A DNA stretch of 64,000 nucleotides from a virus. The notes below the pieces were generated by a model that made no database searches, was not told where the DNA came from, and saw nothing but the letters and a program-made list of their open reading frames with translations. Every line of letters starts with the position of its first letter. The first letter of the stretch is position 1. Shown one piece after another: positions 22,429 through 44,810 of the stretch. The position numbers were made by a program, and so were the translations under genes. The stretch lies in the IMG/VR virus record IMGVR_UViG_3300025897_000009, one strand, 5' to 3'.

Positions 22429-23174
22429 TATTTAAAGTCCTTTTTTTGCCACATGTATTTTCTATATGAACCTGTTATACCATATTTAGATAACTTTCCA
22501 TCATGATCTTCTCGATGTCTCGAGTATTCTTCCATGTTAGGGTTCTTCCAATAGTCTGCGTAATCTACTCGAGTAGATGATGTCCAACTTTCCCTCTTAA
22601 AAGGAAACAACTGAACGATAGGAGTGCCTTCTGGTATTGTAAAAGTCTTTCGCACTTTAGGATACATAATCAACTGAGCATTAAGATCACCACCCTTAAA
22701 CTTGTCTGTATCTATAATGCCTTGCCATGCTGAAATGTATTCATTCGCGAACAAAAATGGATCTAAGTACAGAGTCGAGTACCCATCAGGAGTTCTTACT
22801 GAAAAAGGCATGTTCATTTTGATTGCATCATTTTGAACTCCAGGCATCATCGCAAACTGCCTAAAAGGATGAGACTGTGATTCCCAAACTTCATGATGAG
22901 GGCATTTCATTTCAAATGAAGTTTCTTTTTCCGCAATCTCGTCACCATAATATTGAACAATCATATCTCTAACTGCTACAACATAATACCCTGTCGTAAG
23001 TATATCTTGCATAGCAGGACAAGATCTAATAGTAGATCCTGTACCATGACCATCACCCATGTTTTCTACGATCTTAGTTTTTTTCCACCAATCAGGTTGA
23101 AAATCTTTAGCAGGTATTGCTTCAAAATCTTTCTTAACTCTTTCGTCAAATGTAACAAATTCTATATGTGGCAT
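22428..23174 (-). CDS. Conserved phage protein of unknown function, seen next to oxygenases
   Basis: PDWWKK, TIRSCPAMQDILTTGY, TPDGYS, GIIDTD, GTPIVQLFPFKRESW motifs. Confidence 0.6.
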   Translation of the reverse strand: MPHIEFVTFDERVKKDFEAIPAKDFQPDWWKKTKIVENMGDGHGTGSTIRSCPAMQDILTTGYYVVAVRDMIVQYYGDEIAEKETSFEMKCPHHEVWESQSHPFRQFAMMPGVQNDAIKMNMPFSVRTPDGYSTLYLDPFLFANEYISAWQGIIDTDKFKGGDLNAQLIMYPKVRKTFTIPEGTPIVQLFPFKRESWTSSTRVDYADYWKNPNMEEYSRHREDHDGKLSKYGITGSYRKYMWQKKDFK

Positions 23175-23175
23175 T

Positions 23176-23832
23176 TTATTCTTCTAGTATAAGTTCTGCT
23201 TCACTGCCTCTGACCACTAACGACTGTCTGTTATGATAAGTTGTACCAACAGGAGCATCAGCACTATGTGGTATTCTTCCATCAAACATTAACAGTCTAT
23301 TGGGTTTATAATCGATAGCATGTATCTGATGCTGTAACAAATTATCGTGGAACCCCACTTCTCGTTTTGCTTTTTCATCATATATACGCAGTTGACCACC
23401 CCATTCTTGTTGCCAATGCAGGTTGTTGTAATAAAGAAAGGAAATGTTTTGATCGTCTTTGTCTTGACAGTCTTCATGAACTGTACCTTGTAATCCTATG
23501 GTTTGCCCATTCATGCCTGCGTAATCAAATCTTTTCCAACTAAATCCAAATTCAGATTGCAATCTGTTGTCTATAGTTTTAGCAAACCAACCATAATCAT
23601 CGAGTGGATCATCTCTTGTGTAATCTTCTCTATAAAAAGTGATACCCCAAAATTTGTGTCGTATCTGCCCTGCTCTATCTACTTGGTTTGTTTGATTCCA
23701 TCTAGCACAATGTCTGACACATGAGTCAAACCAATAATGAATATCAGGGGATAACCAATTATCAAATACATGAATGTCAGTTAAAGGCAGACTTTGTATT
23801 TTAAATGGTTCATCGTGATAGATGACTTCCAT
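23176..23832 (-). CDS. 2OG-Fe(II) oxygenase
   Basis: HED (HxD), W..EWGG, YKPNRLLMFDGRIPH, terminal R. Confidence 0.85.
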   Translation of the reverse strand: MEVIYHDEPFKIQSLPLTDIHVFDNWLSPDIHYWFDSCVRHCARWNQTNQVDRAGQIRHKFWGITFYREDYTRDDPLDDYGWFAKTIDNRLQSEFGFSWKRFDYAGMNGQTIGLQGTVHEDCQDKDDQNISFLYYNNLHWQQEWGGQLRIYDEKAKREVGFHDNLLQHQIHAIDYKPNRLLMFDGRIPHSADAPVGTTYHNRQSLVVRGSEAELILEE

Positions 23833-24390
23833 TTATTTTTCCTCGTCGCTGGCAGTAAGGAATTCTGGCATCACAGGTCTGAGCGATGCCTTTTGGTAGT
23901 AATCAAAATCTTGTAATTGATCTTCAGGTGCAGCAATAATTTGATTTTTGAGTTCTTCAAAAATTAGGTATGCTTGATCATAAAACTCTAAGCATCTTCT
24001 AGCATCAGATCTAAATGGATGATTAGATCCTTCTCTACCTGCCACATTTGCTTCTACAATGTCACCAAACCTCAATCGATTACACATCTCTCTTACATTC
24101 TCTGCAGTAAAGTGCCACAAATCATCTGCATATTGTTGTTGTAAACTCACACCCTCTGGTGGTTCAGCATTCAACACATATTTTTCTATAGCATCAATCT
24201 CATCATTAGTCAGATCTGTGATTACTTCTTCGTCATCTTTCTTAATGATTTTAATTTTTTGATCATCATAGATAATGTAATCATACTCAAATCCTAGAGT
24301 GGGTGCATCTGTTTGTTCATACTCCCATCGGAGTCCTTTCTCATTTCTGAGTTTAAGGGAATTGTCTTGTTGGTAAATAAATGCGATCAT
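23833..24390 (-). CDS. Hypothetical protein (possible fibre assembly chaperone)
   Basis: Acidic 185-aa ORF with SD and CTAAATA promoter at 24423-24429; first gene after mirror-repeat protein 1. Confidence 0.5.
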   Translation of the reverse strand: MIAFIYQQDNSLKLRNEKGLRWEYEQTDAPTLGFEYDYIIYDDQKIKIIKKDDEEVITDLTNDEIDAIEKYVLNAEPPEGVSLQQQYADDLWHFTAENVREMCNRLRFGDIVEANVAGREGSNHPFRSDARRCLEFYDQAYLIFEELKNQIIAAPEDQLQDFDYYQKASLRPVMPEFLTASDEEK

Positions 24391-24454
24391 AATAAAGTTC
24401 TCCTGTACAGTCTATTGTACTATATTTAGTACAAATCGACTAGTGGATTTCAGA

Positions 24455-25696
24455 TTAAGTAATTGGCGTTGCTGGCCAATCAGTTGTACCATCCCATCTT
24501 TGAACTATCCTTTGTGCAGGATAAGGTTGTTGGAAAGGATATGGTGCTTGCACTATCGTTTGAGCAGGGTATGGCTGCTGGAAAGGATATGGTGTTTGAT
24601 AACCTTGTTGATACCCATATGGTTGTTGGAATGGATAAGGTGCATTGTAGTTCTGCTGGTATCCATAAGGTTGCTGGAATGGATAAGGTGCATTGTAGTT
24701 CTGCTGGTATCCATATGGTTGTTGGAATGGATATGGTGCATTGTAACCTTGTTGGAATCCATAAGGTTGCTGGAATGGATATGGTGCATTGTAACCTTGT
24801 TGGAATCCATATGGTTGTTGGAATGAATATGGAGCATTATAATTTTGCTGATACCCATAAGGTTGTTGGAATCCATATGGTTGCTGAAATGCTTGTTGAA
24901 AAGGATAAGGTTGTTGGAATGCATAAGGTTGCTGAAATGCTTGCTGAAAAGTATAAGGTTGCTGGTAAACATAATTCTGCTGAAAAGGTTGCTGGAATGG
25001 ATAAGGTTGCTGAACATTCCCCTTTGGTCCAGGTATTGGAGTTGTTCCAGTTGCTGGTGTAGTTGCAGGTCTTGCTCCAGGTGTGGGTCTCACACCAGTT
25101 GCTGGTGTAGTTGCAGGTCTCACACCATTAGCAGGTCTCACACCAGTTACAGATGAAGTTGCAGGTCTTACTCCATTAGCAGGTCTCACACCACTCGCTG
25201 GTCTTTGTGCTGGATAAGTACCACTAGCAGGTCTCACACCACTAGCAGGTCTTACTGCTGGGTATGTACCTGTAGCAGGTCTCACACCAGTCGCAGGTCT
25301 TACTGCTGGGTATGTACCTGTAGCAGGTCTTGGTCCAGAAGCAGGTCTTTGTGCTGGATAGGTTCCAGTTGCTGGTCTTGGTCCACTTGCAGGTCTCTGA
25401 GCAGGATAAGTTCCAGTTGCTGGTCTTGGTCCAGTAGCAGGTCTTTGTGCTGGAGTTTGACCTGTAGCAGGTCTAGTAGCAGTATAATTCTGTTGTGCTG
25501 GAGTTTGACCAGTCGCAGGTCTTGTAGAAGTATAATTCTGCTGAGCAGGGAATTGACCAGAAGATTTTATCCATCCATTTGGAGTTTTAGTATAAATTCC
25601 TTCGACAGCAGAAAACTCTGCTGGTCCTGTTTTTACCCATGCCCCACTAGTTGATGACCAACCTGTGGGAGTTTTTACCTGCGAACTCTTTGCCAT
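24455..25696 (-). CDS. Mirror-repeat protein 1 (RPAxG arm / PYxFQQ arm), putative long beta-hairpin virion appendage
   Basis: 48-aa Trp-containing head, 170-aa RPAxG arm, TPIPGPKGNVQQ turn, 170-aa PYxFQQ arm, 13-aa tail; CTAAATA promoter at 25706-25712. Confidence 0.85.
   Translation of the reverse strand: MAKSSQVKTPTGWSSTSGAWVKTGPAEFSAVEGIYTKTPNGWIKSSGQFPAQQNYTSTRPATGQTPAQQNYTATRPATGQTPAQRPATGPRPATGTYPAQRPASGPRPATGTYPAQRPASGPRPATGTYPAVRPATGVRPATGTYPAVRPASGVRPASGTYPAQRPASGVRPANGVRPATSSVTGVRPANGVRPATTPATGVRPTPGARPATTPATGTTPIPGPKGNVQQPYPFQQPFQQNYVYQQPYTFQQAFQQPYAFQQPYPFQQAFQQPYGFQQPYGYQQNYNAPYSFQQPYGFQQGYNAPYPFQQPYGFQQGYNAPYPFQQPYGYQQNYNAPYPFQQPYGYQQNYNAPYPFQQPYGYQQGYQTPYPFQQPYPAQTIVQAPYPFQQPYPAQRIVQRWDGTTDWPATPIT
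24497..25006 (-). repeat. Coding tandem repeat, 48-bp period (PYxFQQ-PYGxQQ-xYNA)
   Basis: Near-identical 48-nt units visible in the DNA. Confidence 0.9.
25043..25552 (-). repeat. Coding tandem repeat, 48-bp period (RPAxGx-RPAxGT-YPAx)
   Basis: Recurring gcaggtct units in the DNA; 16-aa period. Confidence 0.9.
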
Positions 25697-30739: not shown

Positions 30740-30976
30740 CTAAAAAGTACCACCATCTAAAATGGTAGTTGTCACCCACTTATCAGTAGCAGCATCGTAC
30801 GACAGCAAACCATCATCGCTTTCTGTCGCATTTACATCAGCAAGATCATTCAACTCAGAAGTCGAAACTCCTGCGTTAGATGAACCGATTGCTACTTGTT
30901 TTATTTTTGCCCCACCAGCAGAAGAAGAAACTCTTGCTCTTACTGATGGACCTGTGTTAACTCTAATTTTTGGCAT
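30740..30976 (-). CDS. Small fibre-associated protein
   Basis: LNDLADV..DGLLSYD..TDKW module; C-terminal DGGTF. Confidence 0.65.
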   Translation of the reverse strand: MPKIRVNTGPSVRARVSSSAGGAKIKQVAIGSSNAGVSTSELNDLADVNATESDDGLLSYDAATDKWVTTTILDGGTF

Positions 30977-31308
30977 TATACAGTGACTCCAGGTGTAACT
31001 ATAACTTGTCCTTCAACTATTCTGGTCTTATCCCCTCCAGATGCTGTGATGACACAGTCATAGACATATCTTCCATATTCCAATGCTGCAGTTTGTGTAT
31101 CAGTGAGTTCTAAAGTCAATTGTCCACTTGCTTCAGTCACTACCACATTAAATGTTGCTGCTGCAGAACTGCTACTATATGATTTTTTAACCTCTGCTGC
31201 TCCAGTGTATCCAGTTAAATCCATGACTGAACCATCACTGTTAGTTAAGTCAACAGTGAAACTAAAGTCGGATCCTTGATCCACATAAAGATTTGAGATT
31301 GATGCCAT
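30976..31308 (-). CDS. Ig-like fibre/baseplate adaptor (BppU-N-like)
   Basis: NLYVDQGSDF, DLTGYT, GRYVYD, RIVEGQVIVTPGVT; late promoter at 31328-31335. Confidence 0.7.
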   Translation of the reverse strand: MASISNLYVDQGSDFSFTVDLTNSDGSVMDLTGYTGAAEVKKSYSSSSAAATFNVVVTEASGQLTLELTDTQTAALEYGRYVYDCVITASGGDKTRIVEGQVIVTPGVTV

Positions 31309-31338: not shown

Positions 31339-32133
31339 TTAGAGGTTGTATTGCTGTGCTCCAAATAACATAATTACAGGTGTTTTCGCAGTAGTTCGCG
31401 ACTCTTTCGAGACATTAAACTCTTGCACACCTTCATATTCTTTATTGTTTATATCTATGGTACCATCTAACAATAGTAGCACAGATTTTTCACCTTCAGG
31501 TCTAATATACACGAAATCTTCAGGTTCAAGTACATGTACATCATATTTCCAGAAGTCAAATGGGGTGGGTAAAGTTTGAGGATTGTAATTATTAGAGATA
31601 CAATTTATAGTTGAACCATCAACTAAAGAAGTTGTGGTCACATGATACATCTCTTCGGGATTTTCATTTCGAGAGTTTTCTATGTTAATCTTCGGTATGC
31701 GATCAACTTTGCTTACATTATGATCACCTCTCTTATCTATATGTCCTGGATTTTCTTTATCTAACTCATAATCTGAAGGATTGCCATCTTTGTCTATAGC
31801 AACGACTTCTATTTCACCTTTTGTATATATGTGTATCCTTTTATTGTGGACTAAGTTGCCATCATCCATCATCTTTAAAGATTTGTAAAAGATAGGATCC
31901 CACTCTTTGACTGTATCCCAAACTTCTTGCTCAGTTATGTCTGTCTTTTTTAAATGTTTGGCATAGATCTGTTTGATGTGTTTCCAAAGTTCTTCTCTGT
32001 CTACAGGATGAGTTGCTTCTAATGCATGATCAGTCGGAGCAGAGTATCTGGTAACATAACCTTTGTCTAAGATAGATCTTTCGACTGTAAAGGTTTCACC
32101 TTTATATGTTTTGCTAATTCTATTTGGTATCAT
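31339..32133 (-). CDS. Hypothetical protein with a C-terminal cupin-like segment
   Basis: C-terminal YDVHVLEP..SVLLLLDGTIDIN resembles the two upstream paralogs. Confidence 0.55.
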   Translation of the reverse strand: MIPNRISKTYKGETFTVERSILDKGYVTRYSAPTDHALEATHPVDREELWKHIKQIYAKHLKKTDITEQEVWDTVKEWDPIFYKSLKMMDDGNLVHNKRIHIYTKGEIEVVAIDKDGNPSDYELDKENPGHIDKRGDHNVSKVDRIPKINIENSRNENPEEMYHVTTTSLVDGSTINCISNNYNPQTLPTPFDFWKYDVHVLEPEDFVYIRPEGEKSVLLLLDGTIDINNKEYEGVQEFNVSKESRTTAKTPVIMLFGAQQYNL

Positions 32134-32710
32134 TATTGATTTCAGTTATAATAGCAACCATGACTTCATTCTTTGCTCGTATGGTAATGTCTTTACCAGA
32201 TGATGCTCTACAGTATTCAAACCCCTTAACATGGTTGTCATTAATTTGAGCACGTCCTTTTGCTATAAAGATATGTATATTTCCACCCATGTTGCCGATC
32301 TTGATGTATTCATCTTTTTGTAGAGTGGCATAATCGTACACAAGTTCCTTTTCTTGCATCTTATGCTTAGGATGAATGCAGTAAAGATGTCCTCCGTCTA
32401 TAAAGTGCATCCTAACTTCGGATGCATCAGTGTGGTTAGGATACCATGGTCTTCCTGGCATAGGATTTGGTTTGAGACCTGTATTAGCATAATGTATGTT
32501 ACACCAACCACTAGGAGCAACACCAAAACTATGAGAGTCTTTTCCAAAAAGGACATCATGCCTCTCAGTAAATATATGAATTGCGGAACTTGGTCGTTCA
32601 CCTTCTCTACCCTCCTCGAATCGATGAGTGTTTACTTGATAGAACTCATCTACTTTAGCATGGTTATCAAATACTAAGACATCGTCGTAGTTGTACCATT
32701 GCCATTTCAT
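32120..32710 (-). CDS. Hypothetical cupin-like protein (paralog of 32707-33324)
   Basis: GWCNIHY..PNP, DYATLQKDEYI..IFIAKGRAQIN. Confidence 0.6.
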   Translation of the reverse strand: MKWQWYNYDDVLVFDNHAKVDEFYQVNTHRFEEGREGERPSSAIHIFTERHDVLFGKDSHSFGVAPSGWCNIHYANTGLKPNPMPGRPWYPNHTDASEVRMHFIDGGHLYCIHPKHKMQEKELVYDYATLQKDEYIKIGNMGGNIHIFIAKGRAQINDNHVKGFEYCRASSGKDITIRAKNEVMVAIITEINNDTK

Positions 32711-33324
32711 AATTCAGATACCACACAAACCATGTTATCTGAAGATCTGCCTTGTATATCGTAATCTTTGTTTCCTGAAATAGTAATAAAGTTTATAGAA
32801 TCTATTACATCACTATCTTTATATCTTCCACGATTGAGTATCTTTACTTTTCCATGTAAAGCAAACACCCAAACTCGTTTGCCAGGATGTTTCAATCTGA
32901 TGTACTCACCTTTTTGTAATTGAGCAAAGTCCCATACGCATTCTACATCACGCATTGTTTTAGGGTTTGCCAATACGCAGAGTGACATCGCATCATCTTG
33001 GAACATCCACTTAATCGAAGTGCCTGTGTATCCTGGCCAAGAAGGAGTTCCTTGAAATGGATTAGGGTCTAATTGCCTAAAATAGTTTATGTTATTCCAC
33101 CCATGTGCATGCACACGACGTGTGACACCAGAACCATCTGCTGCTGGAGCATCCATCTCATTAACGATAGTGCCACCAATGACACATCTAAAGTTGCTAT
33201 GTCTTTGTTCTAGTTCTCTGCCTTTTTGGGGTAGATGAGTGTTGGGAGTATAGACTTCTCCTTTCTTGCCTTCAATAGAAAACATCCAGAAATCTTTAGC
33301 ATCCCAAAATCTATTTTTCGCCAT
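32707..33324 (-). CDS. Hypothetical cupin-like protein
   Basis: GWNNINY..PNP, DFAQLQKGEYI..VFALHGKVKILN. Confidence 0.6.
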   Translation of the reverse strand: MAKNRFWDAKDFWMFSIEGKKGEVYTPNTHLPQKGRELEQRHSNFRCVIGGTIVNEMDAPAADGSGVTRRVHAHGWNNINYFRQLDPNPFQGTPSWPGYTGTSIKWMFQDDAMSLCVLANPKTMRDVECVWDFAQLQKGEYIRLKHPGKRVWVFALHGKVKILNRGRYKDSDVIDSINFITISGNKDYDIQGRSSDNMVCVVSEL

Positions 33325-33886
33325 AATCTTCTATATCTCGTAGTGCTTCTTTCATACTTTGCACTTCTTTGTAGTTTGCTGAATGTTGAATAGTCAACTC
33401 AGGGATTTCTATGTTTACATCAGTATCTATAATCTCATGAATTTTTTGTATTACATAATCATGAGATAAAGAGTCCAGATCTGGATCTTCTAAGAGTCCT
33501 AGATTGAGTGTAGATATTCTACATCTCTTAGTCGAATTGTAAGTTAAGTTGCTTGCTAAATGGTTTAATGATGCTTTCTGTGCAGCATAAAGATAACCCT
33601 TTGAGATATTGGGTTCTGCTGCTCTAGATGAAATGTTAATAATTAGTTTCTTAGGGTCATGTCTCCATTCATTAAAGATAGCATGTAGCAATTCAGTTTG
33701 TCGGAAGCGAAGATGTGCTAAGTTTATAAAAACATCACAGTCTTTTGCTTTCGATATGACTTCATCCACATTCTCAATAGAAGTTCCTTTACTCGAAAAG
33801 GCAACTATCTTAATATAACTAAATTGTTCTAGATACTCTGCTAGTTTTTTGCCGAGTCCACTTTTACCTGTGATTGCTATCTTCAT
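33311..33886 (-). CDS. Short-chain dehydrogenase/reductase-like protein
   Basis: IAITGKSGLG Rossmann motif, FINLA, IINISS, YAAQK (YxxxK). Confidence 0.85.
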   Translation of the reverse strand: MKIAITGKSGLGKKLAEYLEQFSYIKIVAFSSKGTSIENVDEVISKAKDCDVFINLAHLRFRQTELLHAIFNEWRHDPKKLIINISSRAAEPNISKGYLYAAQKASLNHLASNLTYNSTKRCRISTLNLGLLEDPDLDSLSHDYVIQKIHEIIDTDVNIEIPELTIQHSANYKEVQSMKEALRDIEDYGEK

Positions 33887-34787
33887 ATTTGTTTATCAAG
33901 TCAAAACTTGGTTTGCCAAAGAGTGATCCGTCTACACTGCATTTGTTGCAAGGGGATTGACTTCTGTCTCCTTTTCTTAATTTGTTTCTTATTTTTTTCA
34001 TGGGTTTACTAAACCACACATCATGTAATGACGATTGTAAAAGATTTCCTACGACATGTTCTCTACCCCAATCATTTGAACAAAACAACACATCCCCATT
34101 CCAATCTACAAACATTTTATAGAAAGGATAGTGGCATGGTTTACCTTGTAGAGATTTGATGTCGGACTCTTCGATACCAACCCAATCGATCACACCACTT
34201 CTATTGTTGAGTATCAATCCATGTTTTTCAAAATCACCCCAATGCATCCGATACTTATATTTGTCTCTAGGAATCTCTGCCCAAAGAATTAACTCATCAA
34301 AATGTTCCATCTGTTCTGGACCATCATAAAGATTAATGTAAATTAAATCTAATCCGTTATTGTGAATAAGATCTACTAGATACTTATGATCTAACTTATC
34401 ACCATTAGTGTTACATTCTAATGTAGCATAAGGTAACTCTGTTCTGAAAATTTTAACGATATCTCTAAAATCTGGATTGAGTAAGTTCTCACCAAACCCA
34501 CTAAATGAAATTTTACCACTGTAATTATTTTCTGCTAACTCTTCTGCGATGATCTGTGCACCTTTGATTGTTAGATGTAAATTTCTATTTGGGAATACTT
34601 CTGGATCGTGACGAGGACAAAACACACATGTTCTATTACACAACTCTGTGGTATTAATCTCTATTGTAAGTATTGAAGATAAGGGTTTGTCAAGTTGATT
34701 GTGATGCTTTTCGAAGTGCTTTCGTTCTTGTTCTCTACGATGCTCTAAGAAACCATATTGATCAACTGCTGGTATCCTTTCTGTCAT
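33864..34787 (-). CDS. Radical SAM protein with SPASM/twitch domain
   Basis: CNRTCVFC (CxxxCxxC); C-terminal CHYPF..DWNGDVLFC..GN..CNKC. Confidence 0.92.
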   Translation of the reverse strand: MTERIPAVDQYGFLEHRREQERKHFEKHHNQLDKPLSSILTIEINTTELCNRTCVFCPRHDPEVFPNRNLHLTIKGAQIIAEELAENNYSGKISFSGFGENLLNPDFRDIVKIFRTELPYATLECNTNGDKLDHKYLVDLIHNNGLDLIYINLYDGPEQMEHFDELILWAEIPRDKYKYRMHWGDFEKHGLILNNRSGVIDWVGIEESDIKSLQGKPCHYPFYKMFVDWNGDVLFCSNDWGREHVVGNLLQSSLHDVWFSKPMKKIRNKLRKGDRSQSPCNKCSVDGSLFGKPSFDLINKYEDSNHR

Positions 34788-34941
34788 TATAAAATCCTCG
34801 TTCTATAATAGCAGTTTTGATTCTTGGTTCTTTAGGTTCAAAGAGTGCCATGGCACCACGAAGATCTTCTTCGTTATCAGATTCTGCTTTTAGAACATCA
34901 ATGTAAGTTTGACTATTAGTTAAAGATGTTGATTTTTCCAT
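34762..34941 (-). CDS. 59-aa ORF between mirror-repeat protein 2 and the radical SAM gene (below ORF-track cutoff)
   Basis: Manual translation MEKSTSLTNSQTYIDVLKAESDNEEDLRGAM...; TAATG coupling at 34941. Confidence 0.5.
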   Translation of the reverse strand: MEKSTSLTNSQTYIDVLKAESDNEEDLRGAMALFEPKEPRIKTAIIERGFYNDRKDTSS

Positions 34942-36320
34942 TATAAATTAAACTGTGGGGTTGGTACAGTCTGGTGTATTTTACTAATGTCGTTAGCAGG
35001 AGCAGTTGGATCATTCACATAGATCTCTTGTGCTTTCCTAATTGTACCACCCTGATTTATATATACTCCCTTTGCTTTCGCTATCGGACCTATAGGTCTA
35101 GTCGCAGAATATGGTTGTTGAGCAGGGTTTTGATATGTCTGCTGAAAATTATATGCTTGCTGATATGCTTGTTGTATTGGTCTCTGAGCACTATAGGTTT
35201 GTTGATACGCATATGGTTGCTGGAATGCATAAGGTTGTTGAAAACTATAAGGTTGCTGAAATGGATATGGTGTTTGATATGTATGCTGATAAGATTGTTG
35301 AAAAGCATAAGGTTGTTGAAATGGATATGTACCATTTGCAGGTCTTACCCCATTAGCAGGACGAGTAGCAGGTCTTTGTGCCTGTATAGGTCTAGTTGAT
35401 GCTGTCTGGAAAGTTGTATTAATCGTTGCTGCCTGAGCATTTAATGTGTTACTTGCATCATAGAATTCAGGACTTGGTTCACTGTCTCCTTGTTCAAAAG
35501 TTTCATCTTCCATACTCCAATTAACTTGGAAACCATATGGACCTGAAGTTCCTGCAGTAAATTGGTATGATCCTTCAGGAACTGCTGTTGCACCAGAGAT
35601 AAGGTATGTGTTTGCAATTGCTGGAGTTTGAGCAATCAAATCAAACTCACCATCTTGAGCATCTCCTGCGAAGTAACCTTGCGGACCCATTTGCCAATTA
35701 AGAGTGTCACCCTTATTTAATTGTGCTTGAATAGGTGTATTGCTTTGACCAAATGGAGATGCTAATGTTACAGTAGATCTCGGTAAACCTACATTTGCTT
35801 GTACAGCATAGGTGCTCACGAGAGCAGGGTTTGTTCTCTGATATGGTTGAGTAAAGGGTTGCTGAAACTGATAAGGTGCTTGCGCAGCACCTTTCGGTGT
35901 TTGATATGGTGCTGTACCTGACGCAGGTCTTACACTCGTTCTAGTTGAAGGTTGCTGAGCAGGTGTAGGTTGCTGAAAAGGTTGTTGAAAACTATAGTTC
36001 TGCTGAAAAGGTTGCTGGAATGCATAAGGTTGTTGAAATGGATATGTTCCATTTGCAGGTCTTGTTCCATTGGCTGGTCTTGTAGCAGGTGTTTGTGCTG
36101 GAGTTTGCCCTGTTGCAGGTCTGGTACCATTCGCAGGTCTTGTTGCTTGTAGAGGTACAGTTCCTGTTGCTGGTCTTGTAGCATCATATGCTTGTTGAGC
36201 AGGTCGATTTGCTGGTCTTTGTCCAGATGCAGGTCTGGTCGCAGGTTGTTGTATAGGTCTGAATGCCGTGTATGGCTGTTGGAAGTTACTCCCGATATTT
36301 ACATAGATATCATCTGCCAT
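34941..36320 (-). CDS. Mirror-repeat protein 2 with internal globular domain
   Basis: RPAxG and PYxFQQ units in constant antiparallel register (i+j=423), an inner PK-centred hairpin, and a ~140-aa non-repeat domain. Confidence 0.85.
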   Translation of the reverse strand: MADDIYVNIGSNFQQPYTAFRPIQQPATRPASGQRPANRPAQQAYDATRPATGTVPLQATRPANGTRPATGQTPAQTPATRPANGTRPANGTYPFQQPYAFQQPFQQNYSFQQPFQQPTPAQQPSTRTSVRPASGTAPYQTPKGAAQAPYQFQQPFTQPYQRTNPALVSTYAVQANVGLPRSTVTLASPFGQSNTPIQAQLNKGDTLNWQMGPQGYFAGDAQDGEFDLIAQTPAIANTYLISGATAVPEGSYQFTAGTSGPYGFQVNWSMEDETFEQGDSEPSPEFYDASNTLNAQAATINTTFQTASTRPIQAQRPATRPANGVRPANGTYPFQQPYAFQQSYQHTYQTPYPFQQPYSFQQPYAFQQPYAYQQTYSAQRPIQQAYQQAYNFQQTYQNPAQQPYSATRPIGPIAKAKGVYINQGGTIRKAQEIYVNDPTAPANDISKIHQTVPTPQFNL

Positions 36321-38165: not shown

Positions 38166-41100
38166 TTATGTTGCGAGTGCTATTGCTCTAAAGTTTTGCA
38201 TGATAGGTATCTCAGTTGTTTTTGTACCTTGTCCTACAACTTTAATTGCGAAAGCAGTAAACTCAGCAATGTTGCTTACAGTGTATTCATACTCTTTAAA
38301 GTTTCTAGAATCTGCCTCTACTGTAATATCTGGACTTCCATTTGTATTGAAGTATGTCCATCCTATTTCATCAAAAGGTAAAGACTCATCGTTTCTTAAA
38401 ACTTTATACATGAGTTTGACATCGTTAGAATTATTTCTAAAGATATCTGCCATTACTTTAATAGCAGTTGCAGGAGTTTTGAGGTTTACTCTCTTGGTGA
38501 GGTAAACCATAGCATTGTTATCTCCTTCAGGTTCAGTGCTATCAGAGAATGTGCTGTAAGATCCAACATCGGATGAAGTATCTACATTGTTAATTCTGTT
38601 ATGTATTGCCAAGCAACCAATTGTACTTAAATCTATCACTGGGGATAGGTTGTTATTAAATGATTGTAATGACAATTGTAATGTAAATGATTTCGCATTT
38701 GACATTTCGTTATTTTCATTTATACCAGAAGCGATCATTTGTCCATCAGCGAAGAAGACATTATCGTTTAAGGCAATATATGAAGATGTACTGTTTCTAG
38801 AGTACTGTGTACCATTAATCACACCCTCTGGTGATTTAGCAGGTGTTGTTCGTACATTACATAATAATGATGTATCTTTAAATGTTAGAGATGGTATCAT
38901 TGTGTGTAATGTATCAAAGTAATAATCTTGTGTTGCTTTTACTGCAGTTCCTCCACCTTTAGAAGTTTCAATCGCAGAACCAACTAAGTCGTATGCAGAA
39001 ACATCAGGTGTTACAGTGTATGAATCTATTTCTATATCAGTCAATGCTGTAAAGGTTGCATTCAATGCTGCGATAGGGAATCCACCCAAAGTATCACCTA
39101 CAGTATCAATCGCAAAGGTTGTGCTGTTTGTAGCAGAACCAAAGTTAGTCACTGTGAGTGTATCAGCAGCATCATACCCAGATCCAGGGTTTTTAATTTT
39201 CCAAGAACTAATAGCACTTGATGCGACAATCACTTTGACTGTTGCACCTGTTCCAGATCCAGAAGTCGTAGTTGCGATGTCATCATAAGTACCATCAGCA
39301 GGGAGTGACCCAGAACCAACTGCAGATGGGTTCGTGATGGTCAACACTGAGTTGGTTCTATCTCCTACGATACCTGTCAGAGTGACATTACCACTAGCAT
39401 CATACATGCCATGTGAATAATGATCAACTTTAATTTTGCTGTTGCCAGATATAAATGATATAGGAGCAGATCCTAATGTTGTTGTGTCTAGTGCATCGTT
39501 GTTAAATCTAACTGTACCACTTAAATCACTGTGGAAAGCACATTGTTTTAAATTGAACTTAAGATCTTCTAATTGCTCAGCAGACCATGTTGATGCGTTT
39601 TGTGATTTGAATAATACACCAGCATATGGTTGATCAGCAATCACTTCTTGTGTAATTAAATCTGTTCCACCCATCTCAGATACGAATGCTTCATAACTGT
39701 TAGAGTTAGAAAGTACAACCACACAATATTCTATTCCATCTTCTAAGTACACTGGAGATTCAAAACTAAAGGTTGTTGCTGTTGAACCATCAGCAGATGT
39801 ATTCACACTTGCTGGTTTCAATGATACTGATGAGAATGGTAATACTATTTGACCAGGATATCCATTAACCATGTTTCTGATTTCTACATTCACAGGTAAT
39901 GAATCATCTTTGGTTTTGAAGTATAGATCAACAGATGATACAAACATACCACCATCTGCTTCAACCATAAATGATTGAGCAAGTGGGTCTCTCCATCCAC
40001 CATCTAACTGTATCTGACCCATAAATTGGTTCATTCTGATAGGTAGTCTTCGAGCAACTATTGGTGCTGGTAATCTTCTTGGTGGTAAAACAGGTTCTAC
40101 TATCGCAGGCACCACAGGTGCTGGAGGTGTAGGTATTGGCAAAGGTGCACGCACAGGCACAGGAGGTGCTTGTACATCAAATTCAACTTGGTTAAGTTCT
40201 TCACCTCTACGAGTGATTGACCTTGATCCTGTTTGTCTTTCTTGTACCACTCTACCATTTCTAGTAGAAGTAATTGTTGTTTGGTTAGATTGTAATAATC
40301 CTCTAGCACTATATGATGCTTGCCCTTTAGAATCAGAATCTATAGACTGAGTTGAAGACGCAGTAACTAGTAGAGTTCTTTCTCCTGTAGGGAATCTTTG
40401 TGCTGAACTATTTGGTATGCTAAATGTAAAGGATATATCACCAGATCGGTCAGACTTAACACCTGCACCCAAAGACGCACTTCCTGTTTGTGAATAGGTA
40501 GAACTTCCTGGAGTACAGAAAGAGTCTACATCAATACCATCAAAGAATACGAAGTGGTTTGTGTTAGGTTTAAATCCATCACCTGTGACTGTAATATCAC
40601 GTGATCTAATAAATGGTATGATACTGATACCAACAGTTCTTGTGTTTCTATCTTCAGTAAATTCTTCTACAACAGAAGTTCTAATACCAGATCTTGTTTG
40701 TGTTTCTGGAGTTTCAGTAATTGTTCTTGTAGTTCTAGCACCTGGAACCCAACGACCACCTTGTCCTGGAGTTCCTTCCCATGAACCTGCACGATTTGTA
40801 ATCGTATCTGTTCCTGAATTATTGGGTTGACCAACCCATGTTGTCTGCCAGTTATTCCAAACTGTACCTAATGAATTGGCATTGCCTGCTAATACTGTGT
40901 CAAAGTTTCCTTCTCTATTGACTCTAATTGCAGGGAGTGTACTTGTATCATTCCATACATCACTTCCTGGAGATAGTCGTACAGTACCCACAAAGGCAAA
41001 CACATTATATGGGTTTACATTAATTGCTTTTGTTGCTTTGCTTTGATTAATAAAAGAAACTTGTGTAAATGGTAAAGTGATAAGATCACCTGTTCTTACA

Positions 41101-44100
41101 TAGTTTGCTGAGTTTGTAGTGTCTAAACCAATATCAAAGAAGTTAGAAACAGACATTGGTCTGAGACTACCCTCTTCCGCATCTATTGCTACTCTATAGT
41201 CAGGGTGGTTTACATCACCAACACCATGACCTCTAAAATTGTCTACTAAGAAACCAGACTTAAATCTATCAAATCCATCACCATCAATTATTTGCATTGA
41301 TTGAGTATCTTTTTCAAGTAAAGAAAGTGTTGTTACCCTTTCTAGATTCTTAACTCTATCAGCAAGTTTGCCGATATCCTTCATTGTATATCGTCTATGG
41401 TCTTGTGATTTGATCACGACATCATCGAGAGATTCTGTATAAGGTTTGAGTGAGAACTCAAATAATTCTATAGCATCATCGATGGGTGCTGGTTTAGTTG
41501 GAGATAAAGATGGTGTACCATGAACGACTTGGTATGAACCAGTCTTATGTAGATACAGTTTATCTATTCTACCAACATAGAAAGTTAAATCACCAACAAC
41601 ATTGGATCCTGGTACTAGCATATCAACGATAGATGCACCAGATGCTGTGACTCCTGTAGTGGATGATTCAAATGATTTGTTTTCGTAATAGTATGGAGCA
41701 CGAACAGCACCACTTGTAGAATTAGATAAGTCTACAGGTGAACTAGGATCAGGTGTTGAGGTACTAAATGTTGTTGTACCTAATATCTGCCCAAGAGATG
41801 GTCTGAAATCAACAGCATCCCTTAATTCATATTCTCCATCTGGTTCTAATGACTCAGGATCTACTCTGTTAGAAATATACTGAGGAATTTCATCATAGTC
41901 AATACCATTATAAGAATTGACATCATAGAAATCACCAGAACCTGATGATGTGAAATAATCAAACACCACCATCACAGGTGAAACAGGAGCAGGTGCTCCA
42001 GGTTTTCTAACGATTTTTGCTAAGTCATAGAAACCATCTCTTTGACCATCGTCAAAGAAGTAGTTGTTTGTAATAACTTTTGAACCTGCATCTAAGGAAC
42101 CCAATGTTCCTGCTGCTGTAGATGTTGAACCGATAATAGATTCTCCATCAGTAAATGCAGTTGTCGAAGTAAGGTAGTAATAAGAAGTGTTTCCTGTACC
42201 ACCATAGTTAATCATCACACCTCTTGCACCTGAAGTTTGACCTACGATGACTTCACCTTGATCAAATCCAGCAGAAGTAGTTTGTGTGACTGTGAAAGAA
42301 GGAGTGATAGCATCGGCACCATCTACACCCTCATAGACTGCTCTTAGTTTGAAAGCATCGGATACACCTAATGTGATTTCTTTGTCATCATATGCTGTAC
42401 CATAGAAACCACCAGCAGTTCTGGCACTTCCTACTTTCAATACTCTAGCAGATTTTAAGTTTTTGTCTCTATTTTGTGGGGAGTTGATATCAACAGTGTA
42501 GGTGACTTTTAAAATTGCACCATCATCTGCAGCATCAAAACCTGAGATCGTTAATGTTTGCTGTGATCCTGAAGTTGTAATAGCAGTTGTAATGTTGTTT
42601 GTGTTATCAGATACATCTATGATATCACCTGCGTTTAAGTTTCCACCACCAGCAGGTTCTACTACAGCAAGAATAAAGTTATCTGCTGTAATAGTATCAA
42701 AGGTTTCCCCTGTTTGAGTTTCGATTGCTATCTGTTGGGATGCTACTGTATCTACTATTTGCCTTCTAACTGATAATTGATCAGGTGTATGGTTAGATAC
42801 ATAGTCTCTTGCCCATGATGTGATAGCAACTGTTTGTTCTTGATTGTAAATCTTAGTTCTTCTTCGAGTGATATTACCTGTTTGTGTTGAACCTGCAGTT
42901 GAAGACAATGTAAGTGAAGTGTCACCTGCGATTGAAGAAACGATTCTTTCGTTTCCTGCTGAGTCAACTAAGATATCTCCCTCTTTGAGTTCTGTACTAA
43001 ATAATGATCCAAACCCTGTCACAGTTGTAGAACCACTCGTAAGTGATACTGTTCCTGTTAGGATAAAGTCATTATCTGTAACAACATCAGCAGTAAAGGT
43101 TTCTCTTGCCGAGTTATTCGGAACTTGAGAAACACCTCTTACTCTATCGATGTTATAATTTCTTGTTGCTGTATTTTGCCCTGCAGATATAGCACCAGAT
43201 CCAGTACCATAAGAAGTCACTGAATCTGCATCATCCCAATTACCTACAACATCATGTAAGTATAGATTGCTAGATGCATCATATGCTACAATACCTGATT
43301 TGGTATTGTCTGCGTTTCTTACTTGGTCACCAGCACTAAAAGTACCAGTCTTTCCTGAGTAAGTAATCTTTGTAAACATCTTGACATCGAAAAGATACAT
43401 CTGGAAATTATCCGTTTGATCGTAGATACCATAGTTGCCTACAGTTGAAGATGTGCCACTTAGATGATCAAAGTTTCTTACACGAGCATAACCAATATGT
43501 ATGCTAGAAGGTGCAGTTCCTGGAGTAGCAATCGCAGTATCCCACAACTTCACATAGTTGTATGGTGCTTGTGTATCATCACCTGACTCATTACCAAACT
43601 CAGGTTCACTATGTACATCTGTGACTTTGAGGTAATTTCCTATACGAACAGGAGTATTTGCAGCAGTTAAGGATTGAGTTGTTCTTGCTTTCTGTATTGA
43701 TACAGGAGTCGTTGCTGTTTTCTCTATCTCAAATCCTTTTACATATGCTTTTCCTGGGGAAACTTGTACGACAAATTTTGTACTGTCTCCACCATTCGCT
43801 TCAGAATAATATCCTCGATTTGTACCATCGTCTAGATGTTCTCTCAACGAGGTAGTGAATTGTTGTACCACATAATCACCAGACTCATCAAAGGTTCGTC
43901 TTGCCAATGTGTTTTCGATTTCACTGTAATTCGTATTGCTAACTTTGTTTTCGATTATACCATTGTTGACTCTTAACAATTCAATAAAGTTGACATCAGT
44001 GGTAGTTGTTAATCCTTTCTTAGCAAAATTAAAATCTATTTTAAGACGATCGGCACCTGGAGCATTTTCATTAGATGATCCTTGTGCATTGTCTAGGAGT

Positions 44101-44810
44101 GTAGAATCATTAGCACTTGAGACTAAGGATTCTGTGATATCTAAACCAATTCTATAAGATGGTCTTGGAGAATATTTCTCCAAGATAACTGTTTGTGCGT
44201 CCACCTTAACAAAGTATCCTCTTACATAGACGATACCTTCTGAGATTGCTGCTGCTGAACCTCTTCCTGTTGGAACCTTATCTTCAGATTCAACTTGGAA
44301 TTGATTATTGTTTGATGCTGAAGTAATAGAACCATCAGATCCTACTGTCACTTGGGACAATACTTCTAGAGCATCAAAGAATCGAGAGTTGTCAGTGTCA
44401 GTACCTGCTGCAAGGTATTTGACAAAAAGAGTCAGTGAATCGTCAGTTGTTTCTGCTGTAGAGTTAACAACTTTTGCGACGATTCCTGTAGTTCCACCTT
44501 GTAAATACTTATCGTGGAAACTTGCTCTATAACTTTCGACGTCTGCAGTACCCAGTGATTCTGGGTTAGTGTTTTTGACTTTTACATAATGGTACTCGAA
44601 GTCTGCATCCGATTGTGCTCCAAGAACAATAGACCCTTCCTCAAATACATGATCACTAAATCTTTCGATTTGGTTCTGTAATATGGACTGTGCCTGTGTA
44701 AGTTCTCTTGCTTGTATCGGTCTACCTGCTCTGAATAATACACGATGAAACTTTTTACTTTCGTTAAAGTCATCGTAATATGGCGATACATTTAGATCAG
44801 TCTTCTCCAT
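38166..44810 (-). CDS. Very large virion structural protein (2214 aa; DUF4815/VrlC-like)
   Basis: DLNVSPYYDDF, QARELTQAQSILQNQ, APGADRLK, RRYTMKDIG, DPLAQSF, LFKSQNASTW. Confidence 0.85.
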   Translation of the reverse strand: MEKTDLNVSPYYDDFNESKKFHRVLFRAGRPIQARELTQAQSILQNQIERFSDHVFEEGSIVLGAQSDADFEYHYVKVKNTNPESLGTADVESYRASFHDKYLQGGTTGIVAKVVNSTAETTDDSLTLFVKYLAAGTDTDNSRFFDALEVLSQVTVGSDGSITSASNNNQFQVESEDKVPTGRGSAAAISEGIVYVRGYFVKVDAQTVILEKYSPRPSYRIGLDITESLVSSANDSTLLDNAQGSSNENAPGADRLKIDFNFAKKGLTTTTDVNFIELLRVNNGIIENKVSNTNYSEIENTLARRTFDESGDYVVQQFTTSLREHLDDGTNRGYYSEANGGDSTKFVVQVSPGKAYVKGFEIEKTATTPVSIQKARTTQSLTAANTPVRIGNYLKVTDVHSEPEFGNESGDDTQAPYNYVKLWDTAIATPGTAPSSIHIGYARVRNFDHLSGTSSTVGNYGIYDQTDNFQMYLFDVKMFTKITYSGKTGTFSAGDQVRNADNTKSGIVAYDASSNLYLHDVVGNWDDADSVTSYGTGSGAISAGQNTATRNYNIDRVRGVSQVPNNSARETFTADVVTDNDFILTGTVSLTSGSTTVTGFGSLFSTELKEGDILVDSAGNERIVSSIAGDTSLTLSSTAGSTQTGNITRRRTKIYNQEQTVAITSWARDYVSNHTPDQLSVRRQIVDTVASQQIAIETQTGETFDTITADNFILAVVEPAGGGNLNAGDIIDVSDNTNNITTAITTSGSQQTLTISGFDAADDGAILKVTYTVDINSPQNRDKNLKSARVLKVGSARTAGGFYGTAYDDKEITLGVSDAFKLRAVYEGVDGADAITPSFTVTQTTSAGFDQGEVIVGQTSGARGVMINYGGTGNTSYYYLTSTTAFTDGESIIGSTSTAAGTLGSLDAGSKVITNNYFFDDGQRDGFYDLAKIVRKPGAPAPVSPVMVVFDYFTSSGSGDFYDVNSYNGIDYDEIPQYISNRVDPESLEPDGEYELRDAVDFRPSLGQILGTTTFSTSTPDPSSPVDLSNSTSGAVRAPYYYENKSFESSTTGVTASGASIVDMLVPGSNVVGDLTFYVGRIDKLYLHKTGSYQVVHGTPSLSPTKPAPIDDAIELFEFSLKPYTESLDDVVIKSQDHRRYTMKDIGKLADRVKNLERVTTLSLLEKDTQSMQIIDGDGFDRFKSGFLVDNFRGHGVGDVNHPDYRVAIDAEEGSLRPMSVSNFFDIGLDTTNSANYVRTGDLITLPFTQVSFINQSKATKAINVNPYNVFAFVGTVRLSPGSDVWNDTSTLPAIRVNREGNFDTVLAGNANSLGTVWNNWQTTWVGQPNNSGTDTITNRAGSWEGTPGQGGRWVPGARTTRTITETPETQTRSGIRTSVVEEFTEDRNTRTVGISIIPFIRSRDITVTGDGFKPNTNHFVFFDGIDVDSFCTPGSSTYSQTGSASLGAGVKSDRSGDISFTFSIPNSSAQRFPTGERTLLVTASSTQSIDSDSKGQASYSARGLLQSNQTTITSTRNGRVVQERQTGSRSITRRGEELNQVEFDVQAPPVPVRAPLPIPTPPAPVVPAIVEPVLPPRRLPAPIVARRLPIRMNQFMGQIQLDGGWRDPLAQSFMVEADGGMFVSSVDLYFKTKDDSLPVNVEIRNMVNGYPGQIVLPFSSVSLKPASVNTSADGSTATTFSFESPVYLEDGIEYCVVVLSNSNSYEAFVSEMGGTDLITQEVIADQPYAGVLFKSQNASTWSAEQLEDLKFNLKQCAFHSDLSGTVRFNNDALDTTTLGSAPISFISGNSKIKVDHYSHGMYDASGNVTLTGIVGDRTNSVLTITNPSAVGSGSLPADGTYDDIATTTSGSGTGATVKVIVASSAISSWKIKNPGSGYDAADTLTVTNFGSATNSTTFAIDTVGDTLGGFPIAALNATFTALTDIEIDSYTVTPDVSAYDLVGSAIETSKGGGTAVKATQDYYFDTLHTMIPSLTFKDTSLLCNVRTTPAKSPEGVINGTQYSRNSTSSYIALNDNVFFADGQMIASGINENNEMSNAKSFTLQLSLQSFNNNLSPVIDLSTIGCLAIHNRINNVDTSSDVGSYSTFSDSTEPEGDNNAMVYLTKRVNLKTPATAIKVMADIFRNNSNDVKLMYKVLRNDESLPFDEIGWTYFNTNGSPDITVEADSRNFKEYEYTVSNIAEFTAFAIKVVGQGTKTTEIPIMQNFRAIALAT

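What the first reader, a model, noticed from the sequence alone, without database searches (positions are those of the whole stretch)
34941..36320. Second mirror protein uses the same complementary peptide code in a branched, RNA-like stem-loop layout
Seen in sequence: the two unit types are mixed on both arms, but the register is constant at i+j=423. Pairs include Q15:R408, R21:Q402, R29:Q394, R39:Q384, Q43:R380, R49:Q374, R67:Q356, R81:Q342, R87:Q336, Q97:R326, Q103:R320, Q107:R316 and Q113:R310. Where the N-arm switches from RPA units to FQQ units, the C-arm switches the opposite way. A nested hairpin (i+j=285: Q123:R162, R127:Q158, R131:Q154) is centred on P142-K143, the same PK turn as protein 1. 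RPATGQ:PYPFQQ and TPAQ:xYQT pairs recur in both proteins. A ~140-aa non-repeat domain (about aa 165-300) sits at the tip. Inference: RPAxG and PYxFQQ act as complementary pairing units that build a stalk presenting a tip domain, possibly for receptor binding. I know of no described family with this design.
Basis: partly seen in the sequence, partly recalled or inferred. Interest (0 to 1): 0.92.

Follow-up and report, generated by a model that had tools for sequence, protein, structure and literature searches.

The report
Phage fibre with complementary mirror arms
A tail-module protein of an uncultured marine T4-like phage has two repeat arms that match unit for unit when one is read backwards, and relatives keep the match through paired swaps, so the chain most likely folds back into a long thin stalk with a variable head, a design I found described in no paper.

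Summary
ORF 34941-36320 (minus strand, 459 aa) has two roughly 105-residue arms built from RPAxGx-type and PYxFQQ-type units. At the single register i+j=423, 16 of 20 Arg face Gln, and 15 of 16 C-arm unit markers face the opposite unit type. That count was reached in 0 of 100,000 unit permutations. No DNA inverted repeat explains it.

The decisive evidence comes from relatives:
- A 59%-identical ortholog (L001) has the inner stem flipped on both arms and is still complementary.
- Orthologs of the sister protein (24455-25696) change arm length from 160 to 204 residues with both arms in step.
- Every Pro lies on one residue parity and every Arg and nearly every aromatic on the other, with no three-residue phase. 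This fits beta strands, not collagen-like or polyproline helices.

The best reading is an intramolecular two-stranded fold-back stalk. Conserved N- and C-terminal caps close its base, it carries a short side hairpin, and a fast-diverging ~137-aa head sits at the tip. The gene lies in the baseplate/fibre module.

AlphaFold2 gave no confident model of the arms, so the 3D form, oligomeric state and receptor binding remain inferred. This scan has noted similar mirror fibres in other marine T4-like phages. I found no paper describing any of them.

The parts
34941..36320 (-). Whole gene of mirror protein 2 (459 aa plus stop)
   Evidence: ORF list and translation. The family-wide conserved N-terminus (MADEIYIN...) supports the start codon.
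36285..36320 (-). N-terminal cap strand, aa 1-12 (IYVN motif)
   Evidence: Invariant or near-invariant columns M1, Y6, I7, N8, G10. AF2 predicts strand 5-8 at pLDDT 64-67.
35970..36284 (-). N-arm of the main stem, aa 13-117: mixed FQQ-type and RPAxGx-type units
   Evidence: Pairs with aa 306-410 at i+j=423. All 9 Arg fall on odd positions and all 18 Pro on even positions.
35817..35969 (-). Side (nested) hairpin, aa 118-168, register i+j=285
   Evidence: 3 R:Q and 5 small:aromatic pairs. Conserved at 72% in L001.
35892..35897 (-). P142-K143 turn of the side hairpin
   Evidence: The same PKG turn sits at the mirror centre of protein 1 and of all its close (RPA/FQQ-type) orthologs.
35406..35816 (-). 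Non-repeat central (tip) domain, aa 169-305
   Evidence: No repeats. No Pfam, PDB or Atlas relatives. Only 47% identical to L001, against 90-93% for the caps.
35091..35405 (-). C-arm of the main stem, aa 306-410: unit types in mirror-complementary order to the N-arm
   Evidence: All 6 Arg and all 20 aromatics fall on even positions and all 15 Pro on odd positions.
34944..35090 (-). C-terminal cap, aa 411-459 (AKxKGVYIN...IYVN...KIHQ)
   Evidence: The most conserved part of the family. AF2 predicts a beta meander at pLDDT 65-84. phrog_13729 matches aa 414-438.
24455..25696 (-). Sister gene, mirror protein 1 (413 aa): N-domain aa 1-49, RPAxGx arm aa 50-222, GPKG turn aa 223-226, PYxFQQ arm aa 227-398, short C-terminal tail

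Best explanation
Mirror protein 2 is a structural (fibre-like) protein of a marine T4-like myovirus. Its chain runs out, turns and runs back.

Proposed layout:
- Residues 13-117 and 306-410 lie side by side, antiparallel, as a two-stranded beta ribbon about 35 nm long (105 pairs x ~0.33 nm).
- One face carries the specificity pairs. Arg faces the second Gln of FQQ. Ala or Gly faces Phe or Tyr, so small faces large.
- The other face carries Pro, Thr and Gln. Its prolines would sit at positions whose backbone NH points away from the partner strand.
- Because RPAxGx units fit PYxFQQ units and not themselves, the order of units on one arm dictates the order on the other and fixes one register.
- The conserved N- and C-terminal segments join into one small beta-sheet cap at the base, which probably docks on the virion.
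- Residues 118-168 form a short side hairpin around a P-K-G turn.
- Residues 169-305 form a variable globular head, probably the ligand-binding end.

Shown: the complementarity, its conservation through paired changes, the residue parity, the caps and the gene context.

Inferred: the beta geometry, the length, the number of chains per fibre, virion attachment and receptor binding.
For: 1. Single register. It is far beyond chance and is not a DNA palindrome.
2. Compensated changes in the ortholog.
   - L001 is 59% identical overall. Its flanking genes are 86-90% identical.
   - In L001 the inner stem is exchanged between arms: FQQ,FQQ,PYQT,FQQ,FQQ now lies on the N-arm and RPA,RPA,TPAL,RPA,RPA on the C-arm.
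   - The match is kept: 17 of 20 Arg face Gln at i+j=436, 48 of 56 face pairs are complementary, and 16 positions changed on both sides.
   - Both inner arms are about 30% identical to the window's, while the outer arms are about 80%.
3. Protein-1 orthologs. N/C arm lengths are 182/176, 166/160, 204/200, 188/184 and 192/188. The best R:Q register always equals twice the PK-turn position. Fold-back alignments run along whole arms with at most one 2-residue gap.
4. The same R:Q logic appears with other units: (PFQQ)n facing (RPST)n and self-complementary RPANFEQ in L088; RRPVQQ in P0004 and P0017; mixed units in L091. Antiparallel scores are 45-67, against 20-36 for the parallel control.
5. Residue parity. 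Every Pro lies on one parity, and every Arg and all but a few aromatics on the other, over arms of 105-230 residues. All unit spacings are even (4-16), and there is no mod-3 phase. Pro parity holds family-wide.
6. AF2 predicts strands 13-16 and 407-410, whose end positions sum to 423, inside a moderately confident cap.
7. Gene context. The gene lies between gp8 and gp13 among fibre genes. About 75 of 80 IMG/VR loci keep the order giant protein, fibre, this family, LtfC-like protein, fibre.
8. Gly/Ala facing Phe/Tyr across antiparallel strands is a known stabilising pair ('aromatic rescue of glycine', Merkel and Regan 1998; from my own knowledge, not found in the paper library).
Against: - AlphaFold2 gave no usable model of the arms. 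The full protein with a 16-sequence alignment had pLDDT 30-40 in the arms and tip. A 170-residue hairpin fragment of protein 1 had pLDDT 50 and no secondary structure.
- The simple R:Q plus small:aromatic code is not detectable in most distant family members with RSPFTYQ/QQPNIR-type units. The code is therefore shown only for some subfamilies.
- Covariation at i+j=constant cannot distinguish an intrachain hairpin from an antiparallel pairing between two chains.
- A lone two-stranded ribbon with a 35 nm aromatic face is unlikely to be stable by itself. Some higher assembly must exist and is unknown.
- There are no expression, virion-proteome or imaging data.
Confidence: 0.7

Rival explanations
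1. The arms pair between chains, not within one. Two or more chains lie antiparallel, the N-arm of one on the C-arm of another, giving a head-to-tail or domain-swapped fibre.
For: An antiparallel homodimer gives the same i+j=constant covariation and the same balanced arm lengths. Phage fibres are usually oligomers.
Against: In protein 1 and in the side hairpin the pairing runs right up to a four-residue G/T-P-K-G turn, with parity flipping exactly there. That is what a tight hairpin needs and what a dimer does not. The conserved N and C caps are predicted to share one sheet. In an antiparallel dimer, the heads and caps of P2 would sit at both ends.
Confidence: 0.13
2. The arms do pair in the mirror register, but not as a beta ribbon. 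They might be two extended polyproline-like strands, or part of a bundle with other chains or other virion proteins.
For: The arms are Pro-rich (12-17% Pro). AF2 predicts no strands in them. Alternating X-Pro rods such as the TonB (EP)n/(KP)n segment are extended without being beta sheet (own knowledge).
Against: The strict two-residue parity, the exclusively even unit lengths (4, 6, 8, 10, 12, 14, 16) and the absence of a three-residue phase fit a two-fold strand repeat, not a three-fold PPII helix. Small:aromatic cross-strand pairs are typical of antiparallel sheets.
Confidence: 0.12
3. There is no defined structure. The arms are low-complexity, disordered repeats, and the mirror order is a by-product of tandem and segmental duplication.
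For: A 151-nt direct repeat (76% identical) links the two arms: 35231-35381 and 35948-36098. A duplicated RPA-then-FQQ module is automatically self-complementary. AF2 confidence is low.
Against: Block lengths are cross-matched (r1~q2, q1~r2) rather than copy-matched, and only 1 of 120 block orders gives the observed match. Orthologs show flips and balanced indels. Not one parity slip occurs over hundreds of residues. Drift in disordered repeats would not preserve any of this.
Confidence: 0.04

Closest known systems
Streptococcal antigen I/II adhesins (SpaP/P1, BspA; Larson et al. 2010 as summarised in PMC7732690)
   Same: Two unlike repeat regions flank a variable head domain and associate intramolecularly into a stalk over 50 nm long that projects the head. 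[quoted passage not shown]
   Different: In AgI/II the arms are an alanine-rich alpha helix wound with a polyproline-II helix, built from long (39-82 aa) repeats, in a cell-wall-anchored bacterial adhesin. Here the units are 4-16 residues with beta-type two-residue parity, both unit types occur on both arms, there is no sequence similarity, and the protein is a phage virion-module protein.
Needle domain of the phage T4 long-tail-fibre tip, gp37 (Bartual et al. 2010 as described in PMC9659904 and PMC6957217)
   Same: It is a phage fibre in which each chain runs out to a head (specificity) domain and back, giving an antiparallel beta needle, in a T4-type phage.
   Different: gp37 is a trimer forming a six-stranded needle held by seven iron ions bound by His residues. 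P2 has two His and no HxH, and P1 has none. Pfam/PHROG profile scans gave no fibre-family match and a PDB sequence search gave none. gp37 has no repeat-unit pairing code.
Other mirror-complementary fold-back fibre proteins noted by this scan in marine T4-like phages (e1-5706942, e1-5728558, e1-5667934, e1-5618216 and others; AI notes, unpublished)
   Same: They share the phenomenon: two repeat arms matching in reverse order, arms changing length together, and a T4-like marine phage fibre module.
   Different: As summarised, those notes mostly describe self-complementary arrays with other unit types. Here two different unit types are mixed on both arms, orthologs show strand flips, and the layout is branched with a globular head. 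I did not see or compare their sequences.
Collagen-like and polyglycine/polyproline-II fibre modules of phages (for example the gp38 adhesin PGII sandwich; own knowledge)
   Same: They are Pro/Gly-rich short repeats in phage fibres, with the register set by small residues.
   Different: They need a three-residue period. Here there is none, and the period is strictly two.

Membership tests
T4 gp37-type long-tail-fibre tip | His-X-His motifs that bind the iron ions along the needle | tested here: not met
   P2 has 2 His and no HxH. P1 has no His.
T4 gp37-type long-tail-fibre tip | Sequence similarity to known fibre-tip families or solved chains | tested here: not met
   No Pfam hit. No PDB sequence hit at E<=1. 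No tblastn hit in 50,697 phage records.
T4 gp37-type long-tail-fibre tip | Out-and-back chain path with the specificity domain at the turn | tested here: inconclusive
   The sequence mirror and its covariation support it. No structure model was obtained.
Antigen I/II adhesins | Alanine-rich heptad A-region, proline-rich P-region, lectin-like V domain and LPXTG anchor | tested here: not met
   No Pfam domain of that family. The arms are RPAxGx/PYxFQQ units with two-residue parity. The sequence has no LPXTG.
Collagen-like / PPII triple-helix fibres | Gly (or Pro) at every third residue over long runs | tested here: not met
   The longest G-X-Y run is 2-3 triplets. Pro is spread evenly over the three mod-3 classes.
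Uncharacterised phage family with the MADEIYIN... N-cap and ...TRPIGPxAKVK... C-cap (this report; partial overlap with phrog_13729) | Conserved N- and C-terminal caps around variable even-period repeat arms and a central non-repeat domain, located between a fibre gene and an LtfC-like gene | tested here: met
   32 representative clusters and 93 IMG/VR stretches. Invariant cap columns. Pro parity in all members tested. Conserved synteny.
Two-unit (RPAxGx : PYxFQQ) mirror subfamily | A single antiparallel register in which R faces Q and small faces aromatic, kept through paired changes | tested here: met
   Window P2, L001 and L091; P1 and its orthologs L081, L082, L089, L092 and L094. It is not detectable in the RSPFTYQ-type members.

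The most novel reading that the evidence does not exclude
These phages use a natural, modular peptide pairing code: R opposite Q, small opposite aromatic, and Pro confined to the outward face. The code programs the register of very long two-stranded beta hairpins, including branches, in the way base pairing programs RNA stem-loops. Units can be swapped between strands, lengthened or replaced as long as the partner changes too. That would be a fibrous protein architecture with no solved example, and a ready-made rule set for designing long beta ribbons.
Probability: 0.55. Interest if true: 0.92.

Novelty: categorically new. Interest (0 to 1): 0.86.

Why it matters
Three things would follow if the fold-back ribbon is real.

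- It would add a new class of fibrous protein, with an unusually readable sequence-to-structure rule. The register of a ~100-residue hairpin could be read off the sequence, and evolution visibly maintains it by compensatory change, something familiar from RNA but not from proteins.
- It would explain a widespread but unannotated gene family in the fibre modules of abundant marine T4-like phages (93 stretches in IMG/VR). It would also point to the central head as a candidate host-recognition domain.
- It would give protein designers natural hetero-pairing strand units that do not self-associate.

The neighbouring radical SAM/SPASM and 2OG-Fe(II) oxygenase genes raise the separate question of whether these Pro-, Tyr- and Gln-rich arms are chemically modified.

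Tried and rejected
- AlphaFold2 on the whole protein with a 16-sequence family alignment gave mean pLDDT 41. Only the caps were confident, with no model of the arms or tip.
- AlphaFold2 on a 170-aa hairpin fragment of protein 1 gave pLDDT 50 and no secondary structure.
- Fold search of the P2 model against 48,161 PDB representatives gave no match with Z>=2.
- Pfam gave nothing for P1 or P2. PHROGs gave only a 25-residue match of the C-cap to phrog_13729 of unknown function.
- PDB sequence search found nothing for P2 and only weak (best E=0.005), unconvincing hits for P1.
- Megablast and tblastn against 50,697 phage records found nothing for this gene.
- ESM Atlas look-alikes of the tip domain scored at most 0.79, which is uninformative.
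- Exact look-up of both proteins in the 15-billion-protein collection found neither. No whole genome is held for this window.
- A word-based homolog search for P1 found nothing. Its orthologs came from pattern scans instead.
- DNA or RNA palindrome as the cause was rejected: there are no inverted repeats.
- Collagen/PPII periodicity was rejected.
- Extending the simple pairing code to the RSPFTYQ/QQPNIR-type family members showed no signal above controls. Whether they pair by another code is open.
- The hit of P2 aa 186-217 to a 3708-aa repetitive protein (P0028) looks spurious.
- Motif searches of the literature returned only unrelated papers.

Full report
**Setting**

The window is a stretch of an uncultured marine T4-like myovirus. 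On the minus strand it carries, in order:
- portal, sheath, terminase, gp15, gp14 and gp13 homologs;
- a block of fibre-like genes;
- a gp8 baseplate wedge protein (PF09215) and further baseplate genes.

The gp8 protein is at most 39% identical to those of Synechococcus and Pelagibacter myophages. The DNA has no near match among 50,697 phage records. The target ORF, 34941-36320 (-), 459 aa (P0002), lies between gp8 and gp13. That is the slot where T4 keeps gp9-gp12 and fibritin. It sits directly downstream of a 543-aa fibre-like gene.

**The observation**

- At the antiparallel register i+j=423, 16 of the 20 Arg face Gln. The next unrelated register reaches 10, and residue-shuffled sequences reach at most 11.
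- A stricter null uses one marker per unit (R of RP, second Q of QQ). At 423, 15 of 16 C-arm markers face a marker of the opposite type. This was reached by none of 100,000 permutations of the C-arm units and by 11 of 100,000 shuffles of unit type with spacing kept. Among the 120 orders of the five C-arm blocks, only the observed order reaches it.
- Irregular spacings (4, 6, 8, 10, 12, 14) are mirrored too.
- On the face that carries Arg and the aromatics, 43 of 53 pairs are R:Q or small:aromatic, against 28 at the next register.
- Parallel and same-type comparisons give nothing similar.
- The DNA holds no inverted repeat, so the mirror exists only at the protein level.

The DNA does hold a 151-nt direct repeat linking the arms. 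An RPA-RPA-FQQ-FQQ module is self-complementary, so its duplication helps build a stem. However, the block lengths are cross-matched between the arms rather than copy-matched, which duplication alone would not give.

The sister protein is ORF 24455-25696 (-), 413 aa (P0001). It is the simple case: an RPAxGx arm, a GPKG turn and a PYxFQQ arm. All 21 Arg face Gln at i+j=448, and both arms carry matched 16-residue super-repeats.

**Relatives decide the matter**

The family has conserved N- and C-terminal segments around highly variable arms and centre. It has 32 representative clusters at 50% identity, and 93 confirmed stretches in IMG/VR.

The closest ortholog is L001 (472 aa, 59% identical).
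- Its flanking fibre gene is 86% identical and its radical SAM gene 90% identical.
- Its outer stem is about 80% identical to the window's. Both inner arms are only about 30% identical.
- The inner stem has been exchanged between the strands. Where the window has RPA, RPA, TPAQ-TPAT, RPA, RPA on the N-arm facing FQQ units with SYQH-TYQT on the C-arm, L001 has FQQ, FQQ, PYQT, FQQ, FQQ on the N-arm facing RPA, RPA, TPAL, RPA, RPA on the C-arm.
- One register (436) still pairs 17 of 20 Arg with Gln, and 48 of 56 face pairs are complementary.
- At 16 cap-anchored positions both partners differ from the window while remaining complementary.

This is the protein counterpart of a G:C to C:G flip in an RNA helix.

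Protein 1 gives a second, independent line of evidence.
- Five ortholog types have N/C arm lengths of 182/176, 166/160, 204/200, 188/184 and 192/188.
- In each, the best R:Q register equals twice the position of the P-K turn.
- New unit types arise in matched pairs. Six units of RPATYPAQ/RPATGV in order 8,8,6,8,8,8 face NYNVAFQQ/PYGYQQ in the mirrored order. Where one ortholog inserts FQQ units into the RPA arm, the other arm has RPA units at the mirror position.

More distant proteins use the same R:Q logic with other units. Examples are (PFQQ)n against (RPST)n, self-complementary RPANFEQ, RRPVQQ, and a third mixed P2-type protein, L091. Their antiparallel scores are two to three times the parallel controls.

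**What kind of structure**

In every arm examined, all prolines fall on one residue parity. All Arg, and nearly all Phe/Tyr/Trp and Gly, fall on the other. In P1 this means 35 and 31 Pro, 19 Arg and 49 aromatics in phase, without a single slip. All unit spacings are even, and proline shows no three-residue phase. Proline parity holds across the whole family, including members whose pairing code I could not read.

A strict two-residue period over 100-230 residues is the signature of an extended beta strand with two different faces. It argues against collagen-like or polyproline-II helices.

In a two-stranded antiparallel ribbon, the pairs on one face are the hydrogen-bonded ones. On the other face the backbone NH groups point outwards. 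Placing all prolines on that second face is compatible with the ribbon and would also block edge-to-edge aggregation. This last step is my inference. Small residues facing aromatics across strands is a known stabilising arrangement (own knowledge).

With 105 pairs, the main stem would be about 35 nm long. The side hairpin (aa 118-168) would be about 8 nm, and protein 1 about 57 nm.

**Base and tip**

AlphaFold2 with a 16-sequence alignment was confident only for the termini (pLDDT 64-84). It predicts strands at 5-8 and 13-16 together with 407-410 and a C-terminal meander. Strands 13-16 and 407-410 are exactly partners at i+j=423. The IYVN-type motif occurs once at the N-terminus and twice at the C-terminus, so the cap may be built from both ends of the chain.

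The central domain (aa 169-305) has no detectable relatives outside the family. It is the most divergent non-repeat part, at 47% identity to L001 against 90-93% for the caps. That pattern is expected of a host-recognition end, but binding is untested.

**What failed**

- The arms and tip could not be modelled.
- The complex predictor was unavailable.
- The fold search returned nothing.
- The simple code gives no signal in the RSPFTYQ/QQPNIR-type members.

The three-dimensional form, the number of chains per fibre, and whether pairing is within or between chains are therefore inferred. I favour the intrachain hairpin because pairing and the parity flip run right up to a tight PKG turn in protein 1 and in the side hairpin.

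**Comparison with known systems**

Functionally, the nearest described design is the streptococcal AgI/II stalk. There an alanine-rich helix and a proline-rich PPII helix flank the V domain, fold back on each other for over 50 nm and are locked by the terminal domains (PMC7732690). Among phages, the nearest is the T4 gp37 tip, a six-stranded antiparallel needle in which the chains run to the head and back, held by iron-binding histidines (PMC9659904, PMC6957217).

The present protein is a member of neither. It has no sequence relation to them, no HxH motifs, no helical heptads and no PPII period.

This scan has already noted mirror-complementary fibre proteins in at least 20 other marine T4-like phage genomes. 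Those are unchecked AI notes, not publications. This case adds two unit types mixed on both arms, strand flips between orthologs, and a branched layout with a head. I found no paper describing any of this.

**Verdict**

The structure and function are still inferred. Confidence in an intramolecular fold-back beta stalk is 0.7, and interest is high.

Noticed in passing
window 31339-34941 (-); L001 7417-8686: A 59-aa ORF, a radical SAM/SPASM enzyme (PF04055 + PF13186), an SDR-like protein and three paralogous ~200-260-aa proteins lie between mirror protein 2 and the LtfC-like gene. Among 80 family loci the radical SAM and SDR genes were found only in L001, the one other locus with RPA/FQQ-type arms. 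Elsewhere the LtfC-like gene follows directly. This is a possible modification system for the Tyr/Phe/Gln/Pro-rich arms.
   Followed up: partly
window 21721-24390 (-); L081-L088: Mirror protein 1 is followed in every ortholog locus, including the 30%-identical L088, by a 185-aa hypothetical, a 2OG-Fe(II) oxygenase of the prolyl-hydroxylase-like Pfam family PF13640 and a 248-aa protein. In all but L088 a second 2OG oxygenase (PF13759) and gp13 follow as well. Hydroxylation of the Pro-rich arms is a testable idea.
   Followed up: partly
window 24455-25696 (-): Protein 1 sits just upstream of gp13, separated only by the oxygenase genes. That is the slot of fibritin (wac) in T4. Its predicted length of about 57 nm is close to that of T4 whiskers (own knowledge). 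It is possibly a neck or whisker fibre analogue.
   Followed up: no
window 35231-35381 and 35948-36098: A 151-nt direct repeat (76% identical) places the same RPA-RPA-FQQ-FQQ module in both arms. Because the module is self-complementary, a direct duplication extends the stem. This is a plausible way for such stems to grow.
   Followed up: partly
window 34974-35399 (+), 35090-35356 (both strands), 24443-25654 (+): Long ORFs opposite or overlapping the repeat arms (Leu/Ile/Cys-rich) are frame artefacts of the repeats, not genes.
   Followed up: no
family members P0006, P0009, P0014, P0022, P0031 and others: Distant family members with RSPFTYQ, QQPNIR and QQPYPYIA units keep perfect or near-perfect proline parity (for example 12/12 and 13/13 even spacings) but show no mirror signal with the R:Q plus small:aromatic code. 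They may use another pairing rule.
   Followed up: partly
window 30976-31308 (-): A 110-aa protein with an LtfC-like beta-sandwich domain (PF23926, E 4e-7) follows the P2-family gene in about 79 of 80 loci. It is a conserved partner of unknown role.
   Followed up: no
window 38166-44810 (-): A 2214-aa structural protein lies between gp8 and the fibre genes. It is 50-54% identical to homologs in 72 of the related loci.
   Followed up: no
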